Positions 2,132 to 29,532 of a DNA stretch of 32,000 nt are shown here, piece by piece; the stretch's first letter is position 1; each line of letters begins with the position of its first letter. Position numbers and translations under genes: made by a program. This stretch comes from Candidatus Helarchaeota archaeon (GTDB lineage Archaea > Asgardarchaeota > Lokiarchaeia > Helarchaeales > RDOG01), in the NCBI GenBank assembly GCA_029838215.1, contig JALGVI010000003.1, forward strand, positions 53,350 to 85,349, given 5' to 3'. The notes under the pieces were generated by a model. That model did not search any database. It was given only the letters and a program-made list of their open reading frames with translations, and was not told the origin of the DNA.

Positions 2132-3199
2132 ATGGTTAGAACCGGCGTTATATATGATGATTTATATCTAAACCACGAAACAGGTTCTCATGTTGAGAGT
2201 AAAGAGCGCTTGATTGAAACAAAGAAGTTGTTTGAAGAAAATAAAATCTTTCAAAAAGATGGAATTGTTCATGTCAAGCCCGATCCTGCACCATTAGACG
2301 TGATCAAGCTAGTTCATCACGATTATTATATCGAAAAAGTGAAGGATCGTTGTGAGGCTGGTGGAGGCTGGTTAGATGGCGATACAATCACGTCTCGAGA
2401 TTCCTATGAAACTGCATTGTTTGCAGTTGGTGGACTTACAAAAGCTGCGGACCTGATAATGTCAAAAGAAATTAATAATGCATTTGGGGCTGTGCGTCCT
2501 CCTGGGCATCATGCTGGGGAAGGTGCTGCACGAGGTTTTTGTCTCTTTAACAATGTCGCAATTCTCGCCCGATATTTACTCAAGAGATATGATGAAATCC
2601 AGAAGGTTCTCATCGTTGATCATGATGTTCATGCGGGGAATGGAACCTCGTATACTTTTTACAATCAGCCTGAAGTTCTCTTATTCAACTTGCATCAGCA
2701 TCCCCAGACTTTATATCCCGGGACGTGCTATTTAGACGAAATCGGAGAAGATAAAGGGAAAGGCTATAATGTCAACATGACAGTCATGCCTGGAACATCC
2801 GACATGGAATATATCAATCTAATTGAAGAATTGCTCATTCCTATTGCTTCTCAATTTGAACCTGATTTCGTGCTTGTTTCTGCAGGGTTTGATGCTCATC
2901 ACAGCGATCCTTTAGCAAGCGTTAATCTCACATTAAATGGATTTAAAGAAATTATCCAGCGCGTGAATGAAATTGCGAAAAAGCACTGTAACGGAAGACT
3001 GATGATCACGTTAGAAGGCGGCTATAATCTCAACGCGGTCTCGAAGGGCATTCTAACAGAAGTTTGTGTATTAAACGGTCTGTCTGATTTTGAGTTTGAT
3101 GACAAGAAAATCACGGCTTCTTCGCAAATTCAAAGTTATAATTTAAAACTAATTCAAGAGGCAAAAGATCTCTTTAAACCCTTTTGGACTTTCAAATAA
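2132..3199 (+). CDS. Histone-deacetylase-family Zn-dependent deacylase (class II HDAC / AcuC / acetylpolyamine amidohydrolase-like)
   Basis: Signature blocks are RPPGHHAGEGAARGFCLFNNVAI, DHDVHAGNGT, SAGFDAHHSDPLA and EGGYN. Confidence 0.85.
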   Translation: MVRTGVIYDDLYLNHETGSHVESKERLIETKKLFEENKIFQKDGIVHVKPDPAPLDVIKLVHHDYYIEKVKDRCEAGGGWLDGDTITSRDSYETALFAVGGLTKAADLIMSKEINNAFGAVRPPGHHAGEGAARGFCLFNNVAILARYLLKRYDEIQKVLIVDHDVHAGNGTSYTFYNQPEVLLFNLHQHPQTLYPGTCYLDEIGEDKGKGYNVNMTVMPGTSDMEYINLIEELLIPIASQFEPDFVLVSAGFDAHHSDPLASVNLTLNGFKEIIQRVNEIAKKHCNGRLMITLEGGYNLNAVSKGILTEVCVLNGLSDFEFDDKKITASSQIQSYNLKLIQEAKDLFKPFWTFK

Positions 3200-4361
3200 T
3201 ATCTTTCTTTCTTTTTTCAAACAATTGCCTAATTATTCTTTTGCTTTCAAATTGAAATGCTTTTAGAGTAGGTTTCGGGTCTGTCCACCACAAGTTCGAT
3301 TTTGTTTTCGGATTTAAACAATCAAGCAAGACATCCCAGATTGCTTTTGGATTGTCAATGACATGGATGGCTTCACCACTCAAAGGCCAATGATATCTTA
3401 AATTCACTCGATAGTCTTTTGAAAACGGTATATTTTTCCCCAAAGCATTATTGACTGCAAGCACGGGAAAATTGACTCCACTTGCTATTGCCAACTCCAA
3501 AGATCCCCAAAATTTGGCATTTATTTCCATTAAATAAAGTTGCTTGGTCTTGAAATCACGCTTGAATTCCACCATTGCGATCCCGTCCCATTGTAATGCA
3601 TCTAGGAGTTTTTTACCCGCTTCCATCAAATCTTCCTCATAGATGCTTTCTGCACAACAACTCGCGCCTCCTGATGCGGGAAATTCCCTAATCCTACGAT
3701 GCATGAAAATGCGCTTGCATTTTCCTTTCTGATACAAAGCAAAGAAACCACATCCCTGTCCACTGACATATTGCTGAATGAGTGGAAAATGCGTGTTAAA
3801 ACTCGGATCATTACCTATAGACTCTTCAAGACTCTTCAATAGGTGTTTTTTGGTCATTGCATAAATTGGCTTAGCTTTAAATAATTCATGCCTCCCTTTT
3901 ACCACGAGTGGAAATTTAAATTCATCCAAGTGATCCTTTACTTCTTCAATTGATTTTAAATCCCATGTTTTCGGCGCAGTAATGCCTTGTCTGATTGCGA
4001 GTGAAATCGTAGCAGATTTGTCAAAGCATTTTTCTAACTTGCTTAAAGAGGGAAATGGTAACCGTGCATGTTTTTCAATTTCTTTTTTGTATTCGGCAAG
4101 AAAATAAACCGACCGTCCGCCAATGGGTAAAATTACTTCATAATCTGATCGTTCAAGGAATTTAAGAAAATTTTTCAAGTAATTCTCATTGAAAAAGGAC
4201 TGATCATACGTGATTTTTGAAAAGAAACGTGAGAATCTCGTCAGGCTGTTTTTAAAACCAATGCCATCGACTTGGAACCCTGCTTTATTTAATGCACGTG
4301 CTGCTCCTAAAGCGTGCTTATAATTTGCATCCGTGATCAATACTTTTTTTCGTGTTGTCAT
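3192..4361 (-). CDS. ATP-grasp superfamily enzyme (COG3919-like), substrate unknown
   Basis: FPLVVKGRHE, LIQQYVSGQGCGFFALY and IAMVEFKRD..QLYLMEINAKFWGSLELAIASGVNFP form the ATP-grasp nucleotide-binding core pattern. The start lies 3 nt after the moaB stop. The 3' end overlaps the convergent HDAC gene by 8 nt. Confidence 0.7.
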   Translation of the reverse strand: MTTRKKVLITDANYKHALGAARALNKAGFQVDGIGFKNSLTRFSRFFSKITYDQSFFNENYLKNFLKFLERSDYEVILPIGGRSVYFLAEYKKEIEKHARLPFPSLSKLEKCFDKSATISLAIRQGITAPKTWDLKSIEEVKDHLDEFKFPLVVKGRHELFKAKPIYAMTKKHLLKSLEESIGNDPSFNTHFPLIQQYVSGQGCGFFALYQKGKCKRIFMHRRIREFPASGGASCCAESIYEEDLMEAGKKLLDALQWDGIAMVEFKRDFKTKQLYLMEINAKFWGSLELAIASGVNFPVLAVNNALGKNIPFSKDYRVNLRYHWPLSGEAIHVIDNPKAIWDVLLDCLNPKTKSNLWWTDPKPTLKAFQFESKRIIRQLFEKRKKDII

Positions 4362-4364
4362 TTT

Positions 4365-4883
4365 TTAACTCATCATTTTTAATAGATGGCCCGCTTCCTT
4401 GAGTATGATCTGTTCAAGAGCCAGCTTTACGGCATTTGGTGATCCCGGCAGGCAAAAAATTACCTTTCCCTTGTACGTGCCTGCAAGTGCCCTTGAAAGC
4501 ATGCTGGCAGTTCCAATTTCTTTATAGCTCAGGTAACGAAAGAGCTCTCCAAATCCATTAATTTCCTTCTCAAGAAATGGTCGAATGGATTCAATGGTAA
4601 CATCTCGCGGGTTAATTCCTGTTCCTCCTGAAAAAATTAGAATTTCTATCGTATTCATTAAGGGATTTTGAAGTATCTTTTTTATTTTTTCTTTTTCATC
4701 AGGAACAATTTCGAACCATGCAAGTTCTTGCTTATCTTCCTCCAGAATTTGCCGAACTTTTGGAATAGTTTCATCCGTAAGTTGTTTTCCCTGTTTCAAT
4801 TCAAGATAACGAGAGTCACTTACTATGACCAAGCCATATCTAATGGTCTTCTTCACATTCTTTTTATGTTTCAAGTGAACCAT
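4365..4883 (-). CDS. moaB: Molybdenum cofactor biosynthesis protein B (MoaB/MogA family)
   Basis: LVIVSDSR..., FSGGTGINPRDVT, FGELFR, ASMLSRALAG and FCLPGSPNAV are MoaB/MogA blocks. GGAG lies 9 nt upstream of the ATG. Confidence 0.85.
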   Translation of the reverse strand: MVHLKHKKNVKKTIRYGLVIVSDSRYLELKQGKQLTDETIPKVRQILEEDKQELAWFEIVPDEKEKIKKILQNPLMNTIEILIFSGGTGINPRDVTIESIRPFLEKEINGFGELFRYLSYKEIGTASMLSRALAGTYKGKVIFCLPGSPNAVKLALEQIILKEAGHLLKMMS

Positions 4884-4904
4884 TTCGTGCTACTCCGGTT
4901 CTTT

Positions 4905-5357
4905 TTAAAGATCCTGCTTGATTTTTTCAATAACCAAGATGTCCGAAATTTTGGTATTGGGATATTGTCCATTTTCGTCCTTTTCTAAATATTTTGTCAT
5001 GTCCCAAATCGTTAGGAGCGCGATCTCTACTCCCATGAGAGCCTCTAATTCAACTCCTGTCTTGGCAATTGCTTTTACTTCTACAAAAACATTGATGAAT
5101 TTCTCTTCAATTTCGAAAGAAACATCCACGCTCATGATTGGAATTGGATGTGCTAAAAAAATAAATGCAGGAGTCTGCTTAACTGCATTCACGGCAGCCA
5201 ATTCTGCATTCGCCAACACGTCCCCTTTTTTGATTTTATTTTCTTTTATGGTATTTATTGTCTCTTTCTCTAGAAATATTGTGCCTCTTGCCCGAGCCAC
5301 TCTTAAAATGTCTTTTTTTTCCGAAATATCAATCATTGAAGTCCGTGACGTGCGCAT
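4905..5357 (-). CDS. moaC: Cyclic pyranopterin monophosphate synthase MoaC
   Basis: [18 protein letters not shown]...[32 protein letters not shown]....[20 protein letters not shown] matches the MoaC pattern. Confidence 0.9.
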
Positions 5358-5398: not shown

Positions 5399-5440
5399 TT
5401 TTTATAATATCTATTTCTTAATAAACCAAGTTAAATATAA
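5399..5440. promoter_or_regulatory. Divergent promoter region with TATA-like boxes for moaC (minus) and the JAMM gene (plus)
   Basis: The minus-strand TTATAAAAA (plus 5399-5407) lies about 42-50 nt upstream of the moaC ATG, with an AGGT SD-like element in between. The plus-strand TAAATATAA (5432-5440) lies just upstream of the candidate JAMM starts (TTG 5450, GTG 5483, GTG 5522). Sequence-only inference. Confidence 0.3.
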
Positions 5441-5449
5441 TGCTTCGAT

Positions 5450-7243
5450 TTGTCATGGATCTTTTCGGGGGTTCGAACCCAATTGCAGAAAGTGGCGACG
5501 CCGGAAGAAGATAAAGGAAAAGTGATTTTAAAAGTTGCAGCATATGCGAAAATAGTTCTTCATTGCTCTCGTTTTGCAAATGCAAAAATACCGAAGGGAA
5601 AATGGAAAGAAGTCTATGGATTTCTAGTTGGTACCATCAATGGCGATGATGTTATTGTCAATGATGCAGTTCCAATGACTCACGGTGGTTCTACTGAAGT
5701 AGAGTTTGAAGAAAAGCATTACATTGAAGCTGCCGAATTGGATGCACGATTAGCCGAAACCGGAAACGATTTTATAGTCGGTTGGTATCACAGTCATCCC
5801 GGATTAGACGTATTTTTCTCATGGATAGATGTTCGAAACCACATGGGATTTCAAGGACCTAATCCTAAAAGTATTGGACTCGTGTTTGATCATACGAAGC
5901 TATCCAATCCCGGCGACTTGGGGTTCGAAATATATCGAATCAAGGAAATATCTCCTGATTCGGGTTACTATGAAGTGAAGTGGGTAATTCCTGACATGAG
6001 CGAGGAAGTGTTTGCTAAGACTTTATTTAATCTTTCCACGCGCTCAACTGAACAAAAACCTTTAATTGAAGAATATGGTGAAGATGAAGCAATGGAACTT
6101 GTTCCGCTCACACCAGTTCAAACTAAAATAAGTCTGATCGAGCCATCGCAACAAATGGAACTTGCTCCTCAAACAAAAGAAACTGAAAAGGCAATTGAGA
6201 AGCTCGAAAAAGCTCTTGAATTCAGTAGGAATGAAAAATACGAAAAAGCCGTGGATCTAGCCATAAGTGCTGTACGGGATTTTGAAAAATTAAATGATAT
6301 CGGACGTGCTACTGACGCATATGTTCAGATAGGCGGTATTTTTCTAGATTATTATGAAAAAAACAAGCAAATTAGAACCGATATTTTCAGTCATAAGCGT
6401 GCTCCAACCATCTCTGATGCCGATTCAATGATCAATTTTGCCAAACTGCTTAACATCACGTCGAAACAGATTGACTTCAATAAAACTGGACTGGAAAATG
6501 AAATTAAAGGTGTTTCTGGAGAAATGGTCAGGGTTCTCGATGTCAGGATTCAAATTGCAAATATTTTAATTGAAGCATCATCTGTTTGCCAAATTTTATC
6601 CCGAAATGCGAGAGATAATCGCGATTTAGACGGACAGGTAACCTATCTTACAAAAGCGAACAATGCCTTGAGTACAGCACTCATATTTTTAAGGGCAGTT
6701 GAAGACCAAAAGGATCTCGTTGAAAGAATTTTTGATTTGGATAAATTAACGAGTGATATAAGCCAAGCGCAAGCACGCATCCAAGAGTTACACGGATTAA
6801 AACAATTCCTTAATGTTAAACACATCGAAGCGGCTAATTTGTTCGCTGGTGCAGCACGGATTGCTGAAGATGGCTCAAATGCAATCAAGACCGAAAAATT
6901 CCAAAAATTATTGCTCGCCTACTCTAAAACACTTCAAGGCAGAGCATATCACATGGTTGCTGAAAATGAAAAATACCTAAAAAGAAACATCTGTAAATCC
7001 GTCGGCTACTATCGATTGGCTCAAAATTTCTTTGAGGATGCAAGGACGCTATATCCTCCCTGGGCAAAGAGCGATATCGATAAAAACCAGGGCTTCTTTA
7101 ATGAAGTTGAACATCAAATTCAAATAGGATATAAAAAATGCCTTGAAAGTGGAAAAACTCCCATGGAATTTCCACTGTCAAAAGAGATTGAAATTCCTGG
7201 CAAGATTATTTTATCGCAACCGGAACCCTTATTCTTTCCCTAA
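5450..7243 (+). CDS. JAMM/MPN+ metalloprotease (Rpn11/CSN5-like catalytic domain) with a ~400-aa alpha-helical C-terminal extension
   Basis: The JAMM signature is complete: Glu in KEVYGFLVG, then GWYHSHPGLDVFFSWID, which is H-x-H-x7-S-x2-D (nt ~5789-5830). The remainder (from ~nt 6000) is helix-rich with TPR/MIT-like hairpins (AIEKLEKALEFSRNEKYEKAVDLAISAVRDFEKL). The start codon is uncertain because there is no in-frame ATG; candidates are TTG 5450 and GTG 5483/5522. Confidence 0.85.
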   Translation: MSWIFSGVRTQLQKVATPEEDKGKVILKVAAYAKIVLHCSRFANAKIPKGKWKEVYGFLVGTINGDDVIVNDAVPMTHGGSTEVEFEEKHYIEAAELDARLAETGNDFIVGWYHSHPGLDVFFSWIDVRNHMGFQGPNPKSIGLVFDHTKLSNPGDLGFEIYRIKEISPDSGYYEVKWVIPDMSEEVFAKTLFNLSTRSTEQKPLIEEYGEDEAMELVPLTPVQTKISLIEPSQQMELAPQTKETEKAIEKLEKALEFSRNEKYEKAVDLAISAVRDFEKLNDIGRATDAYVQIGGIFLDYYEKNKQIRTDIFSHKRAPTISDADSMINFAKLLNITSKQIDFNKTGLENEIKGVSGEMVRVLDVRIQIANILIEASSVCQILSRNARDNRDLDGQVTYLTKANNALSTALIFLRAVEDQKDLVERIFDLDKLTSDISQAQARIQELHGLKQFLNVKHIEAANLFAGAARIAEDGSNAIKTEKFQKLLLAYSKTLQGRAYHMVAENEKYLKRNICKSVGYYRLAQNFFEDARTLYPPWAKSDIDKNQGFFNEVEHQIQIGYKKCLESGKTPMEFPLSKEIEIPGKIILSQPEPLFFP

Positions 7244-7819
7244 AGGGAAATCGTATAACGTGGTGTAAATTGGACCTGCTCTTGTCAATTGACTTTTTTT
7301 TAATTGAAAGCTATTGACTTGCATGGTTCCGACTTCTTCAGAGTGTTTTTGATGCTCCATTAATTTCGTAATCAGGGCATTGCGATTCCGTCCGCTTCTT
7401 ACCCTTCCAATGGTTAAATGGGCTTGAAAACGCTTTTCTCTTTTTATCCCATACCGTGAAACCGTAGAATCTATTTGTTTCGAGAGATCCATGACTTCAT
7501 TTTTTCCTTTATCAATACCGATCCAAATTACCTTCGGAAATGCGGGTTTTGGAAAAGATCCAACACTTTTAAATTCTATTTCAAACGGTTTGATGGATAT
7601 TTTCTTTACATCTTCAATGATGTCCTGTAATACTCTTTCTTCGACATCCCCTAAAAATTTAAGAGTTATGTGAATGTTTTTGATTTCAACATATTTAACG
7701 TGGGCATTGGTTACTCGAAACTCCTCTTGGATTTTACCAATGTTTGACAATATGTTTTCATCAATAACTTCTATGGCAAAAAAACTTCTCAACAATACCA
7801 ATTTATCACGCTCTTCCAT
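7229..7819 (-). CDS. thpR: RNA 2',3'-cyclic phosphodiesterase / 2'-5' RNA ligase family (2H phosphoesterase, LigT/ThpR)
   Basis: Two H-x-T-x motifs sit at the expected spacing: HITLKFLG and HLTIGR. The length (196 aa) is typical. The 3' end overlaps the convergent JAMM gene by 15 nt. Confidence 0.8.
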   Translation of the reverse strand: MEERDKLVLLRSFFAIEVIDENILSNIGKIQEEFRVTNAHVKYVEIKNIHITLKFLGDVEERVLQDIIEDVKKISIKPFEIEFKSVGSFPKPAFPKVIWIGIDKGKNEVMDLSKQIDSTVSRYGIKREKRFQAHLTIGRVRSGRNRNALITKLMEHQKHSEEVGTMQVNSFQLKKSQLTRAGPIYTTLYDFPLGKE

Positions 7820-8057: not shown

Positions 8058-9173
8058 TTGACTGGAAAAAAACGAAAAATTCGAGAAATTTCAATTAAAC
8101 GCGATGATATTAGTGTAGGATATTCGAAAATATCTGAAAGTCCTGGTGTCGATGAGGTAGTCATAAAACCCATTGGCTTCCCTTTGATTGCTCTAGGGGA
8201 AGAAAGACAATTCATACGAACTGATAATCCAAAACTCTTTAATTCGTATGCTATTGCTCAGTGGAGTGGAACTTACGTCACGGAAGGCACGTATATTTTT
8301 GATCAATTTCTATTTCCTGATTTTGCATTTGAGATAATTTCTGTCAAGCCTGGACCGGGTAAAATTACATCTGGCACTTCTATTGTGCTTCAGTCAAAGG
8401 AAAAGCTCATTCGCAAGGAATTTCCTAATGTTAGCTTTGACGATATCATCGGTAATCATGAAGCAAAGAGAAAATGTCAAATTATAATGAAGTACTTACA
8501 AGATCCTGACCGATTTGGAGAATGGATTCCGAAAAATGTCCTATTTTATGGACACTCCGGAACAGGAAAAACCATGACTGCAAAGGCTCTTGCAAATGCA
8601 ACTAACGTTCCGATATTCCTGATGAGAGCAACGGATTTAATCGGTTTACATGTTGGAGATGGCGCACGAAAGGTACATAACTTATATAGTGAAGCTTCAG
8701 AATCCAGTCCTTGCATCATTTTTATTGACGAATTGGATGCGATAGGTTTAGATCGAAAATACCAATCCATTCGTGGTGACGTGGCTGAAGTCGTGAATGC
8801 CCTTTTATCAGAAATGGATGGAATTACTAACCAATCAGGAATAGTTACAATAGGTGCCACCAATACACCTGCTTTACTTGATGATAGCATTAAAAACCGA
8901 TTTGAATCTTTGATAGAATTCAAGATCTTTGATGACAATGAGCGATATGAGTTCCTTGAAAAGTATTCAAGGCGACTTCCCATGCCATTCAAAATGGACT
9001 TGCATCGCTTGACGAACATGACAAAGAATTTATCCGGACGAGAATTAAAAGAAAAAATTCTTAAGAATGCATTACATCTTGCCATCCTTGAAGATAAGGA
9101 TGAAATCAATGAGGAAATCATCCAGAAGGTCATTATTCACGTGAAAACCTCAAAAAATCCAATGTTCACGTGA
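8058..9173 (+). CDS. AAA+ ATPase with a beta-rich N-domain and a single classical AAA module (COG1223-like)
   Basis: Walker A is GHSGTGKTMTAKA and Walker B is CIIFIDELDA. The second region of homology is ATNTPALLDDSIKNRF. The N-terminal ~125 aa (FEIISVKPGPGKITSGTSIVL) resembles Cdc48/VAT-type N-domains. Only a TTG start (8058) is available in frame. Confidence 0.85.
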   Translation: MTGKKRKIREISIKRDDISVGYSKISESPGVDEVVIKPIGFPLIALGEERQFIRTDNPKLFNSYAIAQWSGTYVTEGTYIFDQFLFPDFAFEIISVKPGPGKITSGTSIVLQSKEKLIRKEFPNVSFDDIIGNHEAKRKCQIIMKYLQDPDRFGEWIPKNVLFYGHSGTGKTMTAKALANATNVPIFLMRATDLIGLHVGDGARKVHNLYSEASESSPCIIFIDELDAIGLDRKYQSIRGDVAEVVNALLSEMDGITNQSGIVTIGATNTPALLDDSIKNRFESLIEFKIFDDNERYEFLEKYSRRLPMPFKMDLHRLTNMTKNLSGRELKEKILKNALHLAILEDKDEINEEIIQKVIIHVKTSKNPMFT

Positions 9174-28854: not shown

Positions 28855-28992
28855 TATAATTTCCTCGACCCAAATATCCATTAAATTTATTCCTGAGTGA
28901 TAATCGTTCGAATGAAGGCATTTGAAAACGAAATCTAATCTATCAGGATTACCATATTAGTATTGGAAACATCGTATTTATTGATGATTGCA

Positions 28993-29532
28993 ATGTCGAA
29001 ACGGCGACAGGAAACAAGAATTAGCAAGTTCATGAGCTATCTGCTTCGTCACGATCCGCAGCATCTGAAGATGGATCAGGAAGGATTCGTGGACACGGAT
29101 GAGTTCCTGAAGTTATTACAAGCGCGTTTTAACTGGTTCACGAAATCGGATTTAATTTCATTAGTTAATGAAAACGAGCGATATGAAATCTCGGATAATC
29201 GAATTAGGGCCGTTTATGGTCATTCAATTGATGTTTCTCCTAAACTCGAGACAGTACAAGTTAATATCTTGTTTCACGGAACATCTCAAGAGTCCGCGGA
29301 AAGAATTCTCAGGGATGGACTGAAGTCAATGAACCGAAATAAAGTCCATCTTTCGAGAACCGTCAGCCGTGCGAAAGTCGTTGGACGACGGAAGGCGCGC
29401 CATCCCGTCATTCTAATAATTGATGCCAAATCAGCTTCTGATGATGGTATTGTATTTGAAAAAGCAACGGATGACGTTCTAGTTTGTAACGAAATTCCTC
29501 CAAAATACATCCGAGTTTTGGACGATGAATGA
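28993..29532 (+). CDS. kptA: RNA 2'-phosphotransferase Tpt1/KptA
   Basis: SKFMSYLLRHDP, GFVDTDEFL, RAVYGHSI, LFHGT and NKVHLS are the Tpt1/KptA R-H-R-R catalytic-tetrad blocks. The start is uncertain among TTG 28963, ATG 28984 and ATG 28993. Confidence 0.9.
   Translation: MSKRRQETRISKFMSYLLRHDPQHLKMDQEGFVDTDEFLKLLQARFNWFTKSDLISLVNENERYEISDNRIRAVYGHSIDVSPKLETVQVNILFHGTSQESAERILRDGLKSMNRNKVHLSRTVSRAKVVGRRKARHPVILIIDAKSASDDGIVFEKATDDVLVCNEIPPKYIRVLDDE

What the first reader, a model, noticed from the sequence alone, without database searches (positions are those of the whole stretch)
5450..7243. Rpn11/CSN5-like MPN+ (JAMM) protease fused to a ~400-aa helical domain of unknown function
The first ~180 aa carry an intact JAMM active site: the Glu in KEVYGFLVG, then H-S-H-x7-S-x2-D in GWYHSHPGLDVFFSWID. 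The surrounding context (VGWYHSHPG, a long MPN core with inserts) looks more like eukaryotic Rpn11/CSN5/AMSH than the minimal ~120-140-aa prokaryotic JAMMs. It is followed by ~400 residues of predicted helix with TPR/MIT-like hairpins and no catalytic motif I recognise. In eukaryotes MPN+ enzymes gain specificity from separate helical scaffolds (PCI subunits, or the MIT domain in AMSH), so a single-chain MPN+ plus helical-scaffold protein in an archaeon could be a self-contained Ubl-deconjugase. The gene is divergent from moaC-moaB. That matters because archaeal SAMP/MoaD-type Ubls link Moco sulfur transfer to protein conjugation, and JAMM proteases are the known processing and deconjugating enzymes for them. 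No Ubl, E1 or E2 gene is present in this window.
Basis: partly seen in the sequence, partly recalled or inferred. Interest (0 to 1): 0.72.

Follow-up and report, generated by a model that had tools for sequence, protein, structure and literature searches.

The report
Archaeal deubiquitinase fused to Bro1-like domain
An Asgard (Helarchaeales) archaeon encodes one protein that joins an intact Rpn11-type ubiquitin-cleaving MPN+ domain to a domain predicted to fold like the eukaryotic ESCRT adaptor domain Bro1, which a 2024 survey could not find in Asgard archaea.

Summary
The ORF at 5450-7243 (+) is real and intact, and it is conserved full-length in Helarchaeales (27 aligned homologues; 6 of 7 species genomes of the order). 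Residues about 24-200 form an MPN+ domain. The JAMM residues E54, H114, H116, S124 and D127 are invariant. By sequence and by predicted structure the domain is closest to Caldiarchaeum CsRpn11, Rpn11 and CSN5, not to minimal prokaryotic JAMMs or desampylases.

Related Bro1-like domains without MPN occur in other Asgard lineages. The genome carries a full Ub/E1/E2/RING plus ESCRT-II/ESCRT-III/Vps4 cluster on the same contig.

Best reading: a single-chain, ESCRT-III-targeted deubiquitinase, analogous to Bro1-Doa4 or AMSH. ESCRT-III binding is inferred, not shown. The Moco/SAMP idea is weakly supported: moaCB synteny is conserved within the order, but nothing else points that way. The architecture is a new variant of a known kind and of high interest for eukaryogenesis.

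The parts
5450..7243 (+). Whole ORF (597 codons from TTG 5450; probable true start TTG 5483, giving 586 aa): the MPN+ / Bro1-like fusion protein
5430..5439 (+). TATA-like A/T box in the 92-bp moaC/MPN intergenic region; a possible archaeal promoter element (inferred only)
   Evidence: Sequence read. No promoter model was tested.
5519..6049 (+). MPN+ (JAMM) metalloprotease domain, residues about 24-200
   Evidence: Pfam JAB E 1e-14. AF2 model. Foldseek TM 0.83 to CsRpn11 in its ubiquitin complex, 6fnn. PDB profile hits.
5609..5611 (+). Codon of catalytic Glu54 (KEVYGF)
   Evidence: invariant in 27 homologues.
5789..5830 (+). H114-S-H116-x7-S124-x2-D127: the zinc-binding and oxyanion part of the JAMM motif
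   Evidence: invariant in 27 homologues.
6050..6166 (+). Linker, residues 201-239. It begins with the invariant EEYGE (208-211); the rest is variable in length and sequence and predicted disordered
   Evidence: pLDDT below 50. Alignment. An EYG motif is shared with other long Asgard MPN paralogues.
6167..7240 (+). Bro1-like domain, residues about 240-597: TPR-like helical solenoid with one beta-hairpin and an extended C-terminal tail
7220..7240 (+). Extreme C-terminal tail PEPLFFP (P593, F595 and P597 invariant). It is part of the Bro1-like fold and is shared with MPN-less Asgard Bro1-like proteins
   Evidence: The structural alignment runs to model residue 360, opposite ALIX residue 346. Equivalent tails: PQPIIQP in family A3 and PEPLFTP in L042.
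4365..5357 (-). moaB (4365-4883) and moaC (4905-5357): divergent neighbours, conserved next to the gene across the order (context, not shown to be functionally linked)
7229..7819 (-). LigT-type RNA 2',3'-cyclic phosphodiesterase. It is a conserved downstream neighbour in variable orientation, and its 3' end overlaps the ORF by 15 nt (context)
8058..9173 (+). AAA+ ATPase with PRS2_N and PRS2 lid domains. It lies nearby in 3 of the 6 Helarchaeales genomes (context)

Best explanation
The gene encodes a two-module enzyme. The N-terminal module is a zinc-dependent MPN+ (JAMM) isopeptidase of the Rpn11/CsRpn11 type. Its most likely activity is to cleave after the Gly-Gly of the organism's own ubiquitin, acting on conjugates and possibly on the Ub precursor. 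A flexible linker of about 40 residues tethers it to a C-terminal Bro1-like domain. By analogy with ALIX, yeast Bro1, HD-PTP and BROX, that domain would dock on the C-terminal tail of polymerised ESCRT-III, most plausibly the Snf7/CHMP4-like ESCRT-IIIB. This would place the deubiquitinase at sites of ESCRT-mediated membrane remodelling, where ubiquitin could be removed and recycled from cargo or ESCRT components before scission. It would be a single-polypeptide archaeal counterpart of the eukaryotic Bro1-Doa4, HD-PTP-UBPY and AMSH arrangements.

Shown: an intact ORF, an invariant JAMM site, Rpn11-type MPN similarity, a predicted Bro1 fold, and Ub, E1, E2, RING, ESCRT-II, ESCRT-III and Vps4 genes in the genome.

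Inferred: ubiquitin as substrate, ESCRT-III as the partner of the Bro1-like domain, and the cellular role.
For: - **MPN+ domain.** Pfam JAB scores E 1e-14, and the JAMM residues are invariant in 27 homologues. The best solved relatives by sequence are CsRpn11 (2.6e-21), Rpn11 and CSN5. The same holds by structure: TM 0.83 and rmsd 3.1 to the CsRpn11:ubiquitin complex.
- **Evolutionary coherence.** The domain is a conserved unit also found without MPN in other Asgard lineages: hhalign 99% and E 3e-18 to the roughly 505-aa family A3, and 97% to a 371-aa stand-alone protein, with the tail motif shared.
- **Required pathway present.** The genome has Ub (ending ...GG-FLQLAF, so it needs processing), E2, E1, RING, an ESCRT-II Vps25-like gene, Vps4, and ESCRT-IIIA and ESCRT-IIIB on the same contig. 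ESCRT-IIIB is present in every genome checked that has a Bro1-like gene.
- **Eukaryotic precedent (established knowledge).** Bro1 domains bind Snf7/CHMP4 tails and recruit deubiquitinases.
Against: - The Pfam BRO1 model does not detect the domain by sequence, and identity to solved Bro1 domains is only 10-14%. Homology therefore rests on a predicted structure, and convergence of a TPR-like solenoid is not formally excluded.
- No residue-level mapping of the CHMP4-binding patch was possible.
- The gene is not in the Ub-ESCRT cluster. The 32-kb distance seen here is not conserved; in four other genomes ESCRT-IIIB lies on a different contig.
- The conserved neighbours are moaCB, LigT and an AAA ATPase, none of them ESCRT genes.
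- The genome has eight MPN+ paralogues with intact sites, two of them next to E2 genes, so this one need not be the main ubiquitin-processing enzyme.
Confidence: 0.55

Rival explanations
1. The protein is an Rpn11-type deubiquitinase, but the Bro1-like solenoid is a scaffold for a partner other than ESCRT-III. That partner could be substrates, another Ub-system component, or the nearby PRS2-type AAA ATPase. The enzyme would then have no role in membrane remodelling.
For: There is no genomic linkage to ESCRT genes outside this genome. The PRS2-type AAA ATPase lies two genes away in 3 of 6 genomes. HD-PTP and BROX show that Bro1 domains can bind several different peptides at one site (PDB titles). 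The organism has many MPN+ paralogues with different helical C-termini.
Confidence: 0.25
2. This is the first reader's idea: a self-contained deconjugase for a SAMP/MoaD/Urm1-type Ubl, functionally tied to molybdenum-cofactor biosynthesis through its divergent moaC-moaB neighbours.
For: The divergent moaB-moaC/MPN arrangement is conserved in all six Helarchaeales genomes examined, at 40-46% protein identity. The genome has six ThiS/MoaD-family genes.
Against: The NCBIfam desampylase model scores 19 bits against a cut-off of 130. The nearest relatives are ubiquitin-specific Rpn11-type enzymes. No ThiS/MoaD, MoaE or E1 gene lies nearby. MoaC and MoaB do not use MoaD (established knowledge). The neighbours vary in orientation, and the synteny sits within a single order, so it may simply be inherited.
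Confidence: 0.1
3. The protein is a proteasome- or unfoldase-associated 'mini-lid': the helical domain replaces the PCI/Rpn8 scaffold and positions the MPN+ domain over an AAA+ ring.
For: The MPN domain is similar to Rpn11, and there is an AAA ATPase of a 'proteasome regulatory subunit homologue' family nearby.
Against: The C-terminal fold is Bro1, not PCI or an Rpn11 C-terminal helical bundle. No PCI domain was detected in the 94%-complete genome. The conserved C-terminal tail is part of the Bro1 fold rather than a free docking motif.
Confidence: 0.06
4. The Bro1 resemblance is an artefact of structure prediction, or convergence of a TPR-like repeat. The C-terminal domain would then be an Asgard-specific helical domain unrelated to eukaryotic Bro1.
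For: There is no significant sequence match to Pfam BRO1 or to Bro1 chains in the PDB. The only trace is a sub-threshold BRO1 hit (E about 0.0015, 17.8 bits against a cut-off of 35.1) in the sister family A3, and its register was not verified.
Against: The model is very confident and was built without templates. Two independent aligners agree. The match spans the whole domain, including the non-repeat features (the beta-hairpin and the extended tail), and target and model lengths coincide at about 357-360 residues.
Confidence: 0.15

Closest known systems
Caldiarchaeum subterraneum CsRpn11 (PDB 6FJV, 6FNN) and eukaryotic Rpn11/CSN5 MPN+ deubiquitinases
   Same: The same JAMM active site and MPN fold. 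These are the best sequence matches (2.6e-21) and structure matches (TM 0.83). The organism also has a Ub precursor with a C-terminal extension, like C. subterraneum (Fuchs et al. 2018, PMC6043591).
   Different: CsRpn11 is a stand-alone protein of roughly 200 aa (PDB chains of 155 and 228 residues), described as part of an archaeal Ub modification system in which complete Ub operons are known (PMC6043591). Rpn11 and CSN5 work inside PCI/MPN complexes. This protein carries a 360-aa Bro1-like domain, lies outside the Ub operons, and no PCI protein was found in the genome.
Eukaryotic Bro1-domain proteins (ALIX, yeast Bro1, HD-PTP/PTPN23, BROX)
   Different: Sequence identity is 10-14%, and the Pfam BRO1 model does not detect it. 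There is no V domain, proline-rich region, PTP or CAAX. Here the domain is C-terminal and fused to a protease. ESCRT-III binding is untested.
ESCRT-associated deubiquitinases: the yeast Bro1-Doa4 pair, human AMSH/STAMBP (MIT + JAMM), HD-PTP-UBPY
   Same: The functional logic is the same: a deubiquitinase coupled to an ESCRT-III-binding module. AMSH is also a JAMM enzyme, and the profile hits it at about 2e-9.
   Different: AMSH uses a MIT domain, which is only a sub-threshold match here (E 0.015). Doa4 and UBPY are USP-type enzymes recruited in trans. No eukaryotic MPN+/Bro1 fusion is known to me (from memory, not tested).
Haloarchaeal desampylase HvJAMM1 and minimal prokaryotic JAMMs
   Same: The JAMM catalytic motif.
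   Different: The desampylase model scores 19 bits against a cut-off of 130. Prok-JAB is weaker than JAB. No minimal prokaryotic JAMM structure appears among the PDB sequence hits at E 0.01 or below, or in the Foldseek top 50.

Membership tests
JAMM/MPN+ metalloproteases (Pfam JAB, PF01398) | Sequence match above the curated threshold | tested here: met
   54.8 bits against a cut-off of 22.5, E 1e-14.
JAMM/MPN+ metalloproteases (Pfam JAB, PF01398) | Complete E...H-x-H-x7-S-x2-D motif | tested here: met
   E54, H114, H116, S124 and D127 are present and invariant in 27 homologues.
JAMM/MPN+ metalloproteases (Pfam JAB, PF01398) | MPN fold | tested here: met
   The AF2 model matches CsRpn11 (TM 0.83) and Rpn11 (TM 0.75).
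JAMM/MPN+ metalloproteases (Pfam JAB, PF01398) | Zinc-dependent isopeptidase activity on a Ubl | not testable with these tools
   Needs an enzyme assay.
Rpn11/CSN5 orthologues (lid / signalosome subunits) | Assembly with PCI-domain subunits and an MPN- partner | tested here: inconclusive
   No PCI match was found in the 94%-complete genome. The C-terminal region is Bro1-like rather than the Rpn11/CSN5 helical bundle. MPN- partners were not examined.
Bro1 domain (Pfam BRO1, PF03097) | Sequence match to the family model | tested here: not met
   No BRO1 hit in any of the 27 members even at E 10. The six-frame genome search does not hit this gene. Only the sister family A3 gives a sub-threshold hit, E about 0.0015.
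Bro1 domain (Pfam BRO1, PF03097) | Bro1 fold: boomerang-shaped TPR-like solenoid of about 360 aa with a small beta element and an extended C-terminal tail | tested here: met
Bro1 domain (Pfam BRO1, PF03097) | Binding of the C-terminal helix of Snf7/CHMP4-type ESCRT-III on the concave face | not testable with these tools
   Needs a binding assay or a residue-level superposition on ALIX-CHMP4 complexes.
Archaeal desampylase (NCBIfam NF041370) | Score above the equivalog cut-off | tested here: not met
   19 bits against a cut-off of 130.
AMSH-type ESCRT deubiquitinases | MIT domain plus a JAMM domain | tested here: not met
   MIT reaches only E 0.015 and 15.8 bits against a cut-off of 30. The helical region as a whole is Bro1-like.

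The most novel reading that the evidence does not exclude
The Bro1 domain is not a eukaryotic invention. It arose in Asgard archaea, where it exists in several architectures, and in Helarchaeales it is covalently fused to an Rpn11-type deubiquitinase. If so, coupling of deubiquitination to ESCRT-III predates eukaryogenesis, and the eukaryotic Bro1-Doa4, HD-PTP-UBPY and AMSH arrangements are later re-wirings of an ancestral archaeal module.
Probability: 0.4. Interest if true: 0.85.

Novelty: new variant of a known kind. Interest (0 to 1): 0.78.

Why it matters
The origin of Bro1/ALIX is unsettled in the literature I could read.

[quoted passage not shown] 2024, PMC10936438).
- Eme et al. 2023 claim Asgard Bro1 homologues. 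The supplementary rows I could read are proteins of 75-155 aa listed under PF18097, which is the 38-position Vta1_C model.
- Two structure-based Asgard surveys do not mention Bro1 in their main text.

A confidently modelled, full-length Bro1 fold in Asgard archaea would therefore add a missing ESCRT accessory component to the archaeal inventory. Its fusion to an Rpn11-type deubiquitinase works as a Rosetta-stone link: it physically connects the ubiquitin and ESCRT-III halves of the pathway in a prokaryote. It also gives a directly testable hypothesis with small soluble proteins, namely Bro1-like domain against ESCRT-III tails and MPN domain against the Ub-GG-FLQLAF precursor.

Tried and rejected
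- **Complex prediction.** I ran complex prediction on the Bro1-like domain (alignment A2) with residues 135-206 of ESCRT-IIIB (P0062). It gave no verdict (score 0.02 against a mark of 0.32). This is not evidence either way.
- **C-terminal HbYX idea.** I considered that the invariant C-terminal PEPLF(Y/F)P might be an HbYX-type proteasome-docking tail. I rejected this as the primary reading because the tail is part of the structural alignment to Bro1 domains (model residue 360 opposite ALIX 346) and is shared with MPN-less Bro1-like proteins.
- **Sequence searches with the C-terminal domain.** All found only this family or sub-threshold TPR, MIT or SNAP noise:
  - 1.84 billion protein representatives, where the only hit outside the family was P0053, of the Asgard Bro1-like family A3 (E 7.8e-4)
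  - a word-indexed profile search
  - PDB sequences
  - Pfam on all 27 members
  - NCBIfam
  - ESM Atlas, with scores 0.88 or below and TPR/SNAP-type leads only
- **Short MPN relatives.** This search returned only Asgard proteins. A phylogeny with Rpn11, CSN5, AMSH, BRCC36 and HvJAMM could not be built, because no eukaryotic or haloarchaeal sequences were available by reference.
- **Linkage to the ESCRT cluster.** The 32-kb distance is seen in this genome only. ESCRT-IIIB is on other contigs in four related genomes.
- **Sequencing runs.** No RNA holder was listed.
- **Sub-threshold Pfam BRO1 hit in family A3**. I could not verify that its register agrees with the structural alignment, so I do not count it as evidence.
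Full report
**1. Observation**

The window (about 38% GC) carries an uninterrupted ORF at 5450..7243 on the + strand, 597 codons from a TTG.

- Pfam JAB (PF01398) matches residues 24-139 at E 1e-14 (54.8 bits, cut-off 22.5). Prok-JAB scores only 27.9 bits.
- The NCBIfam desampylase model scores 19 bits against a cut-off of 130.
- Residues 200-597 hit no Pfam or NCBIfam family above threshold. Only weak MIT, TPR and SNAP noise appears.
- Homologue N-termini and an A/T-rich TATA-like box at 5430-5439 suggest the real start is the TTG at 5483, giving 586 aa.

**2. Organism and family**

Full-length homologues of 576-603 aa, at 40-77% identity, come from Helarchaeota MAGs in NCBI, JGI, ENA and Logan assemblies. 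A genome scan names Hel_GB_A, Hel_GB_B and other Helarchaeota records.

Among 400 species genomes of the phylum, the full-length form is present in 6 of 7 genomes of the window's own order, across three families. The one genome lacking it is 82% complete.

In a 27-sequence alignment the five JAMM residues, an EEYGE motif just after the MPN domain, and an extreme C-terminal P-x-F-x-P tail (within PEPLF[YF]P) are invariant. The stretch between the two domains varies in length and sequence. The ORF is therefore one conserved gene, not an assembly or frameshift chimera.

**3. The MPN module**

A profile of the family finds Caldiarchaeum CsRpn11 as the best solved relative (2.6e-21). Next come yeast and human Rpn11 (about 2e-15), CSN5 (about 1e-14), AMSH (about 2e-9) and BRCC36. 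No minimal prokaryotic JAMM reaches E 0.01.

The AlphaFold model of the whole protein has pLDDT 79.6, and the linker 201-239 is disordered. It gives the same ranking by structure: the Foldseek top 50 are all Rpn11, CsRpn11, CSN5 or BRCC36, with TM 0.83 and rmsd 3.1 to the CsRpn11:ubiquitin complex.

The genome encodes eight MPN+ proteins with intact motifs. The closest paralogue (47% identity, 486 aa) sits next to an E2 gene. Short relatives found by search are all Asgard proteins. So this MPN belongs to an Asgard radiation of Rpn11-type enzymes.

**4. The C-terminal module**

I modelled residues 238-597 alone from the 27-sequence alignment. The result has pLDDT 94 and pTM 0.90: a helical solenoid with one beta-hairpin and an ordered, extended 30-residue tail.

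- Foldseek against the PDB returns Bro1 domains as the 18 best hits: HD-PTP, ALIX, BROX and yeast Bro1. E goes down to 2.7e-6, with TM about 0.6 over about 320 columns, and target lengths of about 357-360 equal the query length. Generic TPR proteins follow at TM about 0.2.

That is well above the tool's stated background for helical repeats (about 13-14), and it includes the non-repeat elements. Sequence methods do not see the relationship. Pfam BRO1 hits none of the 27 members even at E 10 and does not hit this gene in the six-frame genome search. PDB sequence searches are blank.

I therefore call it a Bro1-like fold and a probable remote homologue, not a member of Pfam BRO1.

**5. Related Bro1-like proteins in other Asgards**

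The A2 profile also finds MPN-less proteins in other families of the phylum.

- A family of about 505-520 aa (alignment A3; P0053, L038-L041), present in 4 of 5 genomes of one genus. hhalign gives 99% probability, E 3e-18, over 295 columns, including the conserved Cys positions and a PQPIIQP tail.
- A 371-aa stand-alone protein (L042), at 97.3%, with a PEPLFTP tail. It lies next to an Arf-like GTPase gene.
- A 458-aa protein (L043), at 91%.

Members of A3 give a sub-threshold Pfam BRO1 hit (E about 0.0015). I could not verify its register, so I do not count it.

**6. Genomic context**

The window is C112:53350-85349 of a 3.62-Mb MAG that is 94% complete. On the same contig, 32-40 kb upstream, lies a canonical Asgard Ub-ESCRT cluster:

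- E1, E2 and ubiquitin. The ubiquitin ends ...TEGG-FLQLAF, so it needs C-terminal processing.
- A small RING protein.
- A Vps25-like ESCRT-II subunit.
- Vps4 (MIT-AAA-Vps4_C).
- ESCRT-IIIA (CHMP1/2-like).
- ESCRT-IIIB (Vps20/32/60-like).

Further E1-E2-MPN and E2-MPN clusters are on other contigs. No PCI domain was detected.

The proximity to the ESCRT cluster is not conserved. In four related genomes ESCRT-IIIB is on a different contig from the MPN-Bro1 gene.

The immediate neighbourhood is conserved in all five other genomes. moaB-moaC lie divergently upstream, a LigT-type 2',3'-cyclic phosphodiesterase lies downstream in variable orientation, and in two of them the PRS2-type AAA ATPase is also nearby. 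The rest of the window is housekeeping: RNA polymerase A'/A'', NusA, S12, thermosome, TGT and a glycyl-radical enzyme.

**7. Interpretation**

The best-supported mechanism is a tethered two-module enzyme. An Rpn11-type zinc isopeptidase acts on the organism's ubiquitin, and a Bro1-like domain directs it to ESCRT-III assemblies. In eukaryotes Bro1 domains bind the C-terminal helix of Snf7/CHMP4 and recruit deubiquitinases: Bro1 recruits Doa4, and HD-PTP recruits UBPY. The JAMM enzyme AMSH reaches ESCRT-III through a MIT domain (established knowledge; see also the PDB titles). The archaeal protein would achieve the same coupling in one chain.

The fold assignment and the catalytic competence are well supported. 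The substrate and the ESCRT-III partner are inferred.

Rivals:
- a Bro1-like scaffold used for another partner;
- a proteasome or unfoldase mini-lid;
- a non-homologous helical repeat.

**8. Novelty**

Makarova et al. [quoted passage not shown] Eme et al. 2023 report Asgard "Bro1" homologues in Hod-, Njord- and Thorarchaeia. The supplementary rows I could read are proteins of 75-155 aa listed under PF18097, which is the 38-position Vta1_C model. Two structure-based Asgard surveys do not mention Bro1 or ALIX in their main text.

Within the literature I could search, a full-length Bro1 fold in Asgards and an MPN+/Bro1 fusion are unreported. Both domains are of known kinds, so I rate this a new variant of a known kind. 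It is of high interest because it bears on the archaeal origin of the ubiquitin-ESCRT pathway and is readily testable.

**9. Limits**

- The Bro1 assignment rests on a predicted structure.
- No eukaryotic sequences were available by reference for profile-profile comparison or phylogeny.
- The complex prediction gave no verdict, and no RNA data were found. Neither is evidence.

From memory only, and offered as a lead: eukaryotic Bro1 domains carry a conserved Asn in a hydrophobic helix after the beta element (the "LFN" motif) and a C-terminal "LF...VP" motif. These may correspond to the invariant N371 (IQIANIL) and the PEPLF.P tail here.

Noticed in passing
Own genome contig C112:18155-26848 (locus L031 3155-11848), 32-40 kb upstream of the window: A complete Asgard Ub-ESCRT cluster: E1, E2, ubiquitin, small RING, Vps25-like ESCRT-II, Vps4, ESCRT-IIIA and ESCRT-IIIB. 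The ubiquitin ends ...TEGG-FLQLAF, so it is a precursor that needs cleavage after GG. An M28 peptidase and a HepT/MNT (nucleotidyltransferase) toxin-antitoxin pair sit between Vps4 and the ESCRT-III genes.
   Followed up: partly
L038 1168-2700 (+); also L039-L041, P0053-P0060 and L060 6811-8316: A second Asgard family of about 505-520 aa with an N-terminal Bro1-like domain (hhalign 99% to the window's domain), a low-complexity linker and an uncharacterised C-terminal domain of about 90 aa, with no MPN. It is found in 4 of 5 genomes of one genus and always lies downstream of a 2-oxoacid:ferredoxin oxidoreductase gene pair.
   Followed up: partly
L042 1138-2253 (+) and 2320-3057 (+): A 371-aa stand-alone Bro1-like protein (hhalign 97%, with a PEPLFTP tail) in another Asgard family, immediately followed by an Arf/Ras-like small GTPase gene.
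   Followed up: partly
window 8058-9173 (+): An AAA+ ATPase with PRS2_N and PRS2-lid domains (the family of the Methanocaldococcus 'proteasome regulatory subunit homologue'). It lies two genes from the MPN-Bro1 gene here and in two other Helarchaeales genomes. Its function and any link to the deubiquitinase are unknown.
   Followed up: partly
Own genome: L001-L008 (contigs C71, C134, C161, C82, C122, C160): Seven further MPN+ paralogues with intact JAMM-type motifs, 227-556 aa long, several with long helical C-termini. Two (C161, C122) sit directly after E2 genes. Other Asgard MAGs carry MPN fused to apolipoprotein-like coiled coils, and one metagenomic protein (P0045) combines TPR, MPN and a PCI domain.
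   Followed up: partly
window 7229-7819 (-) and 28963-29532 (+): Two RNA-end-processing enzymes lie in one window: a LigT 2',3'-cyclic phosphodiesterase, whose 3' end overlaps the MPN-Bro1 ORF by 15 nt, and a Tpt1/KptA RNA 2'-phosphotransferase.
   Followed up: no
window 2132-4361: A histone-deacetylase-family gene (2132-3199, +) and an ATP-grasp ligase of the 'Ter-operon' type (3192-4361, -) lie upstream of moaB. The HDAC gene is also near the MPN-Bro1 gene in Hel_GB_A (L048).
   Followed up: no
window 6071-6082 (residues 208-211, EEYGE): An invariant EEYGE motif sits at the start of the otherwise variable, disordered linker. An EYG motif at the same distance (about 96 residues) after the HxH is shared by other long Asgard MPN paralogues. 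It may be a short docking or autoregulatory motif.
   Followed up: partly
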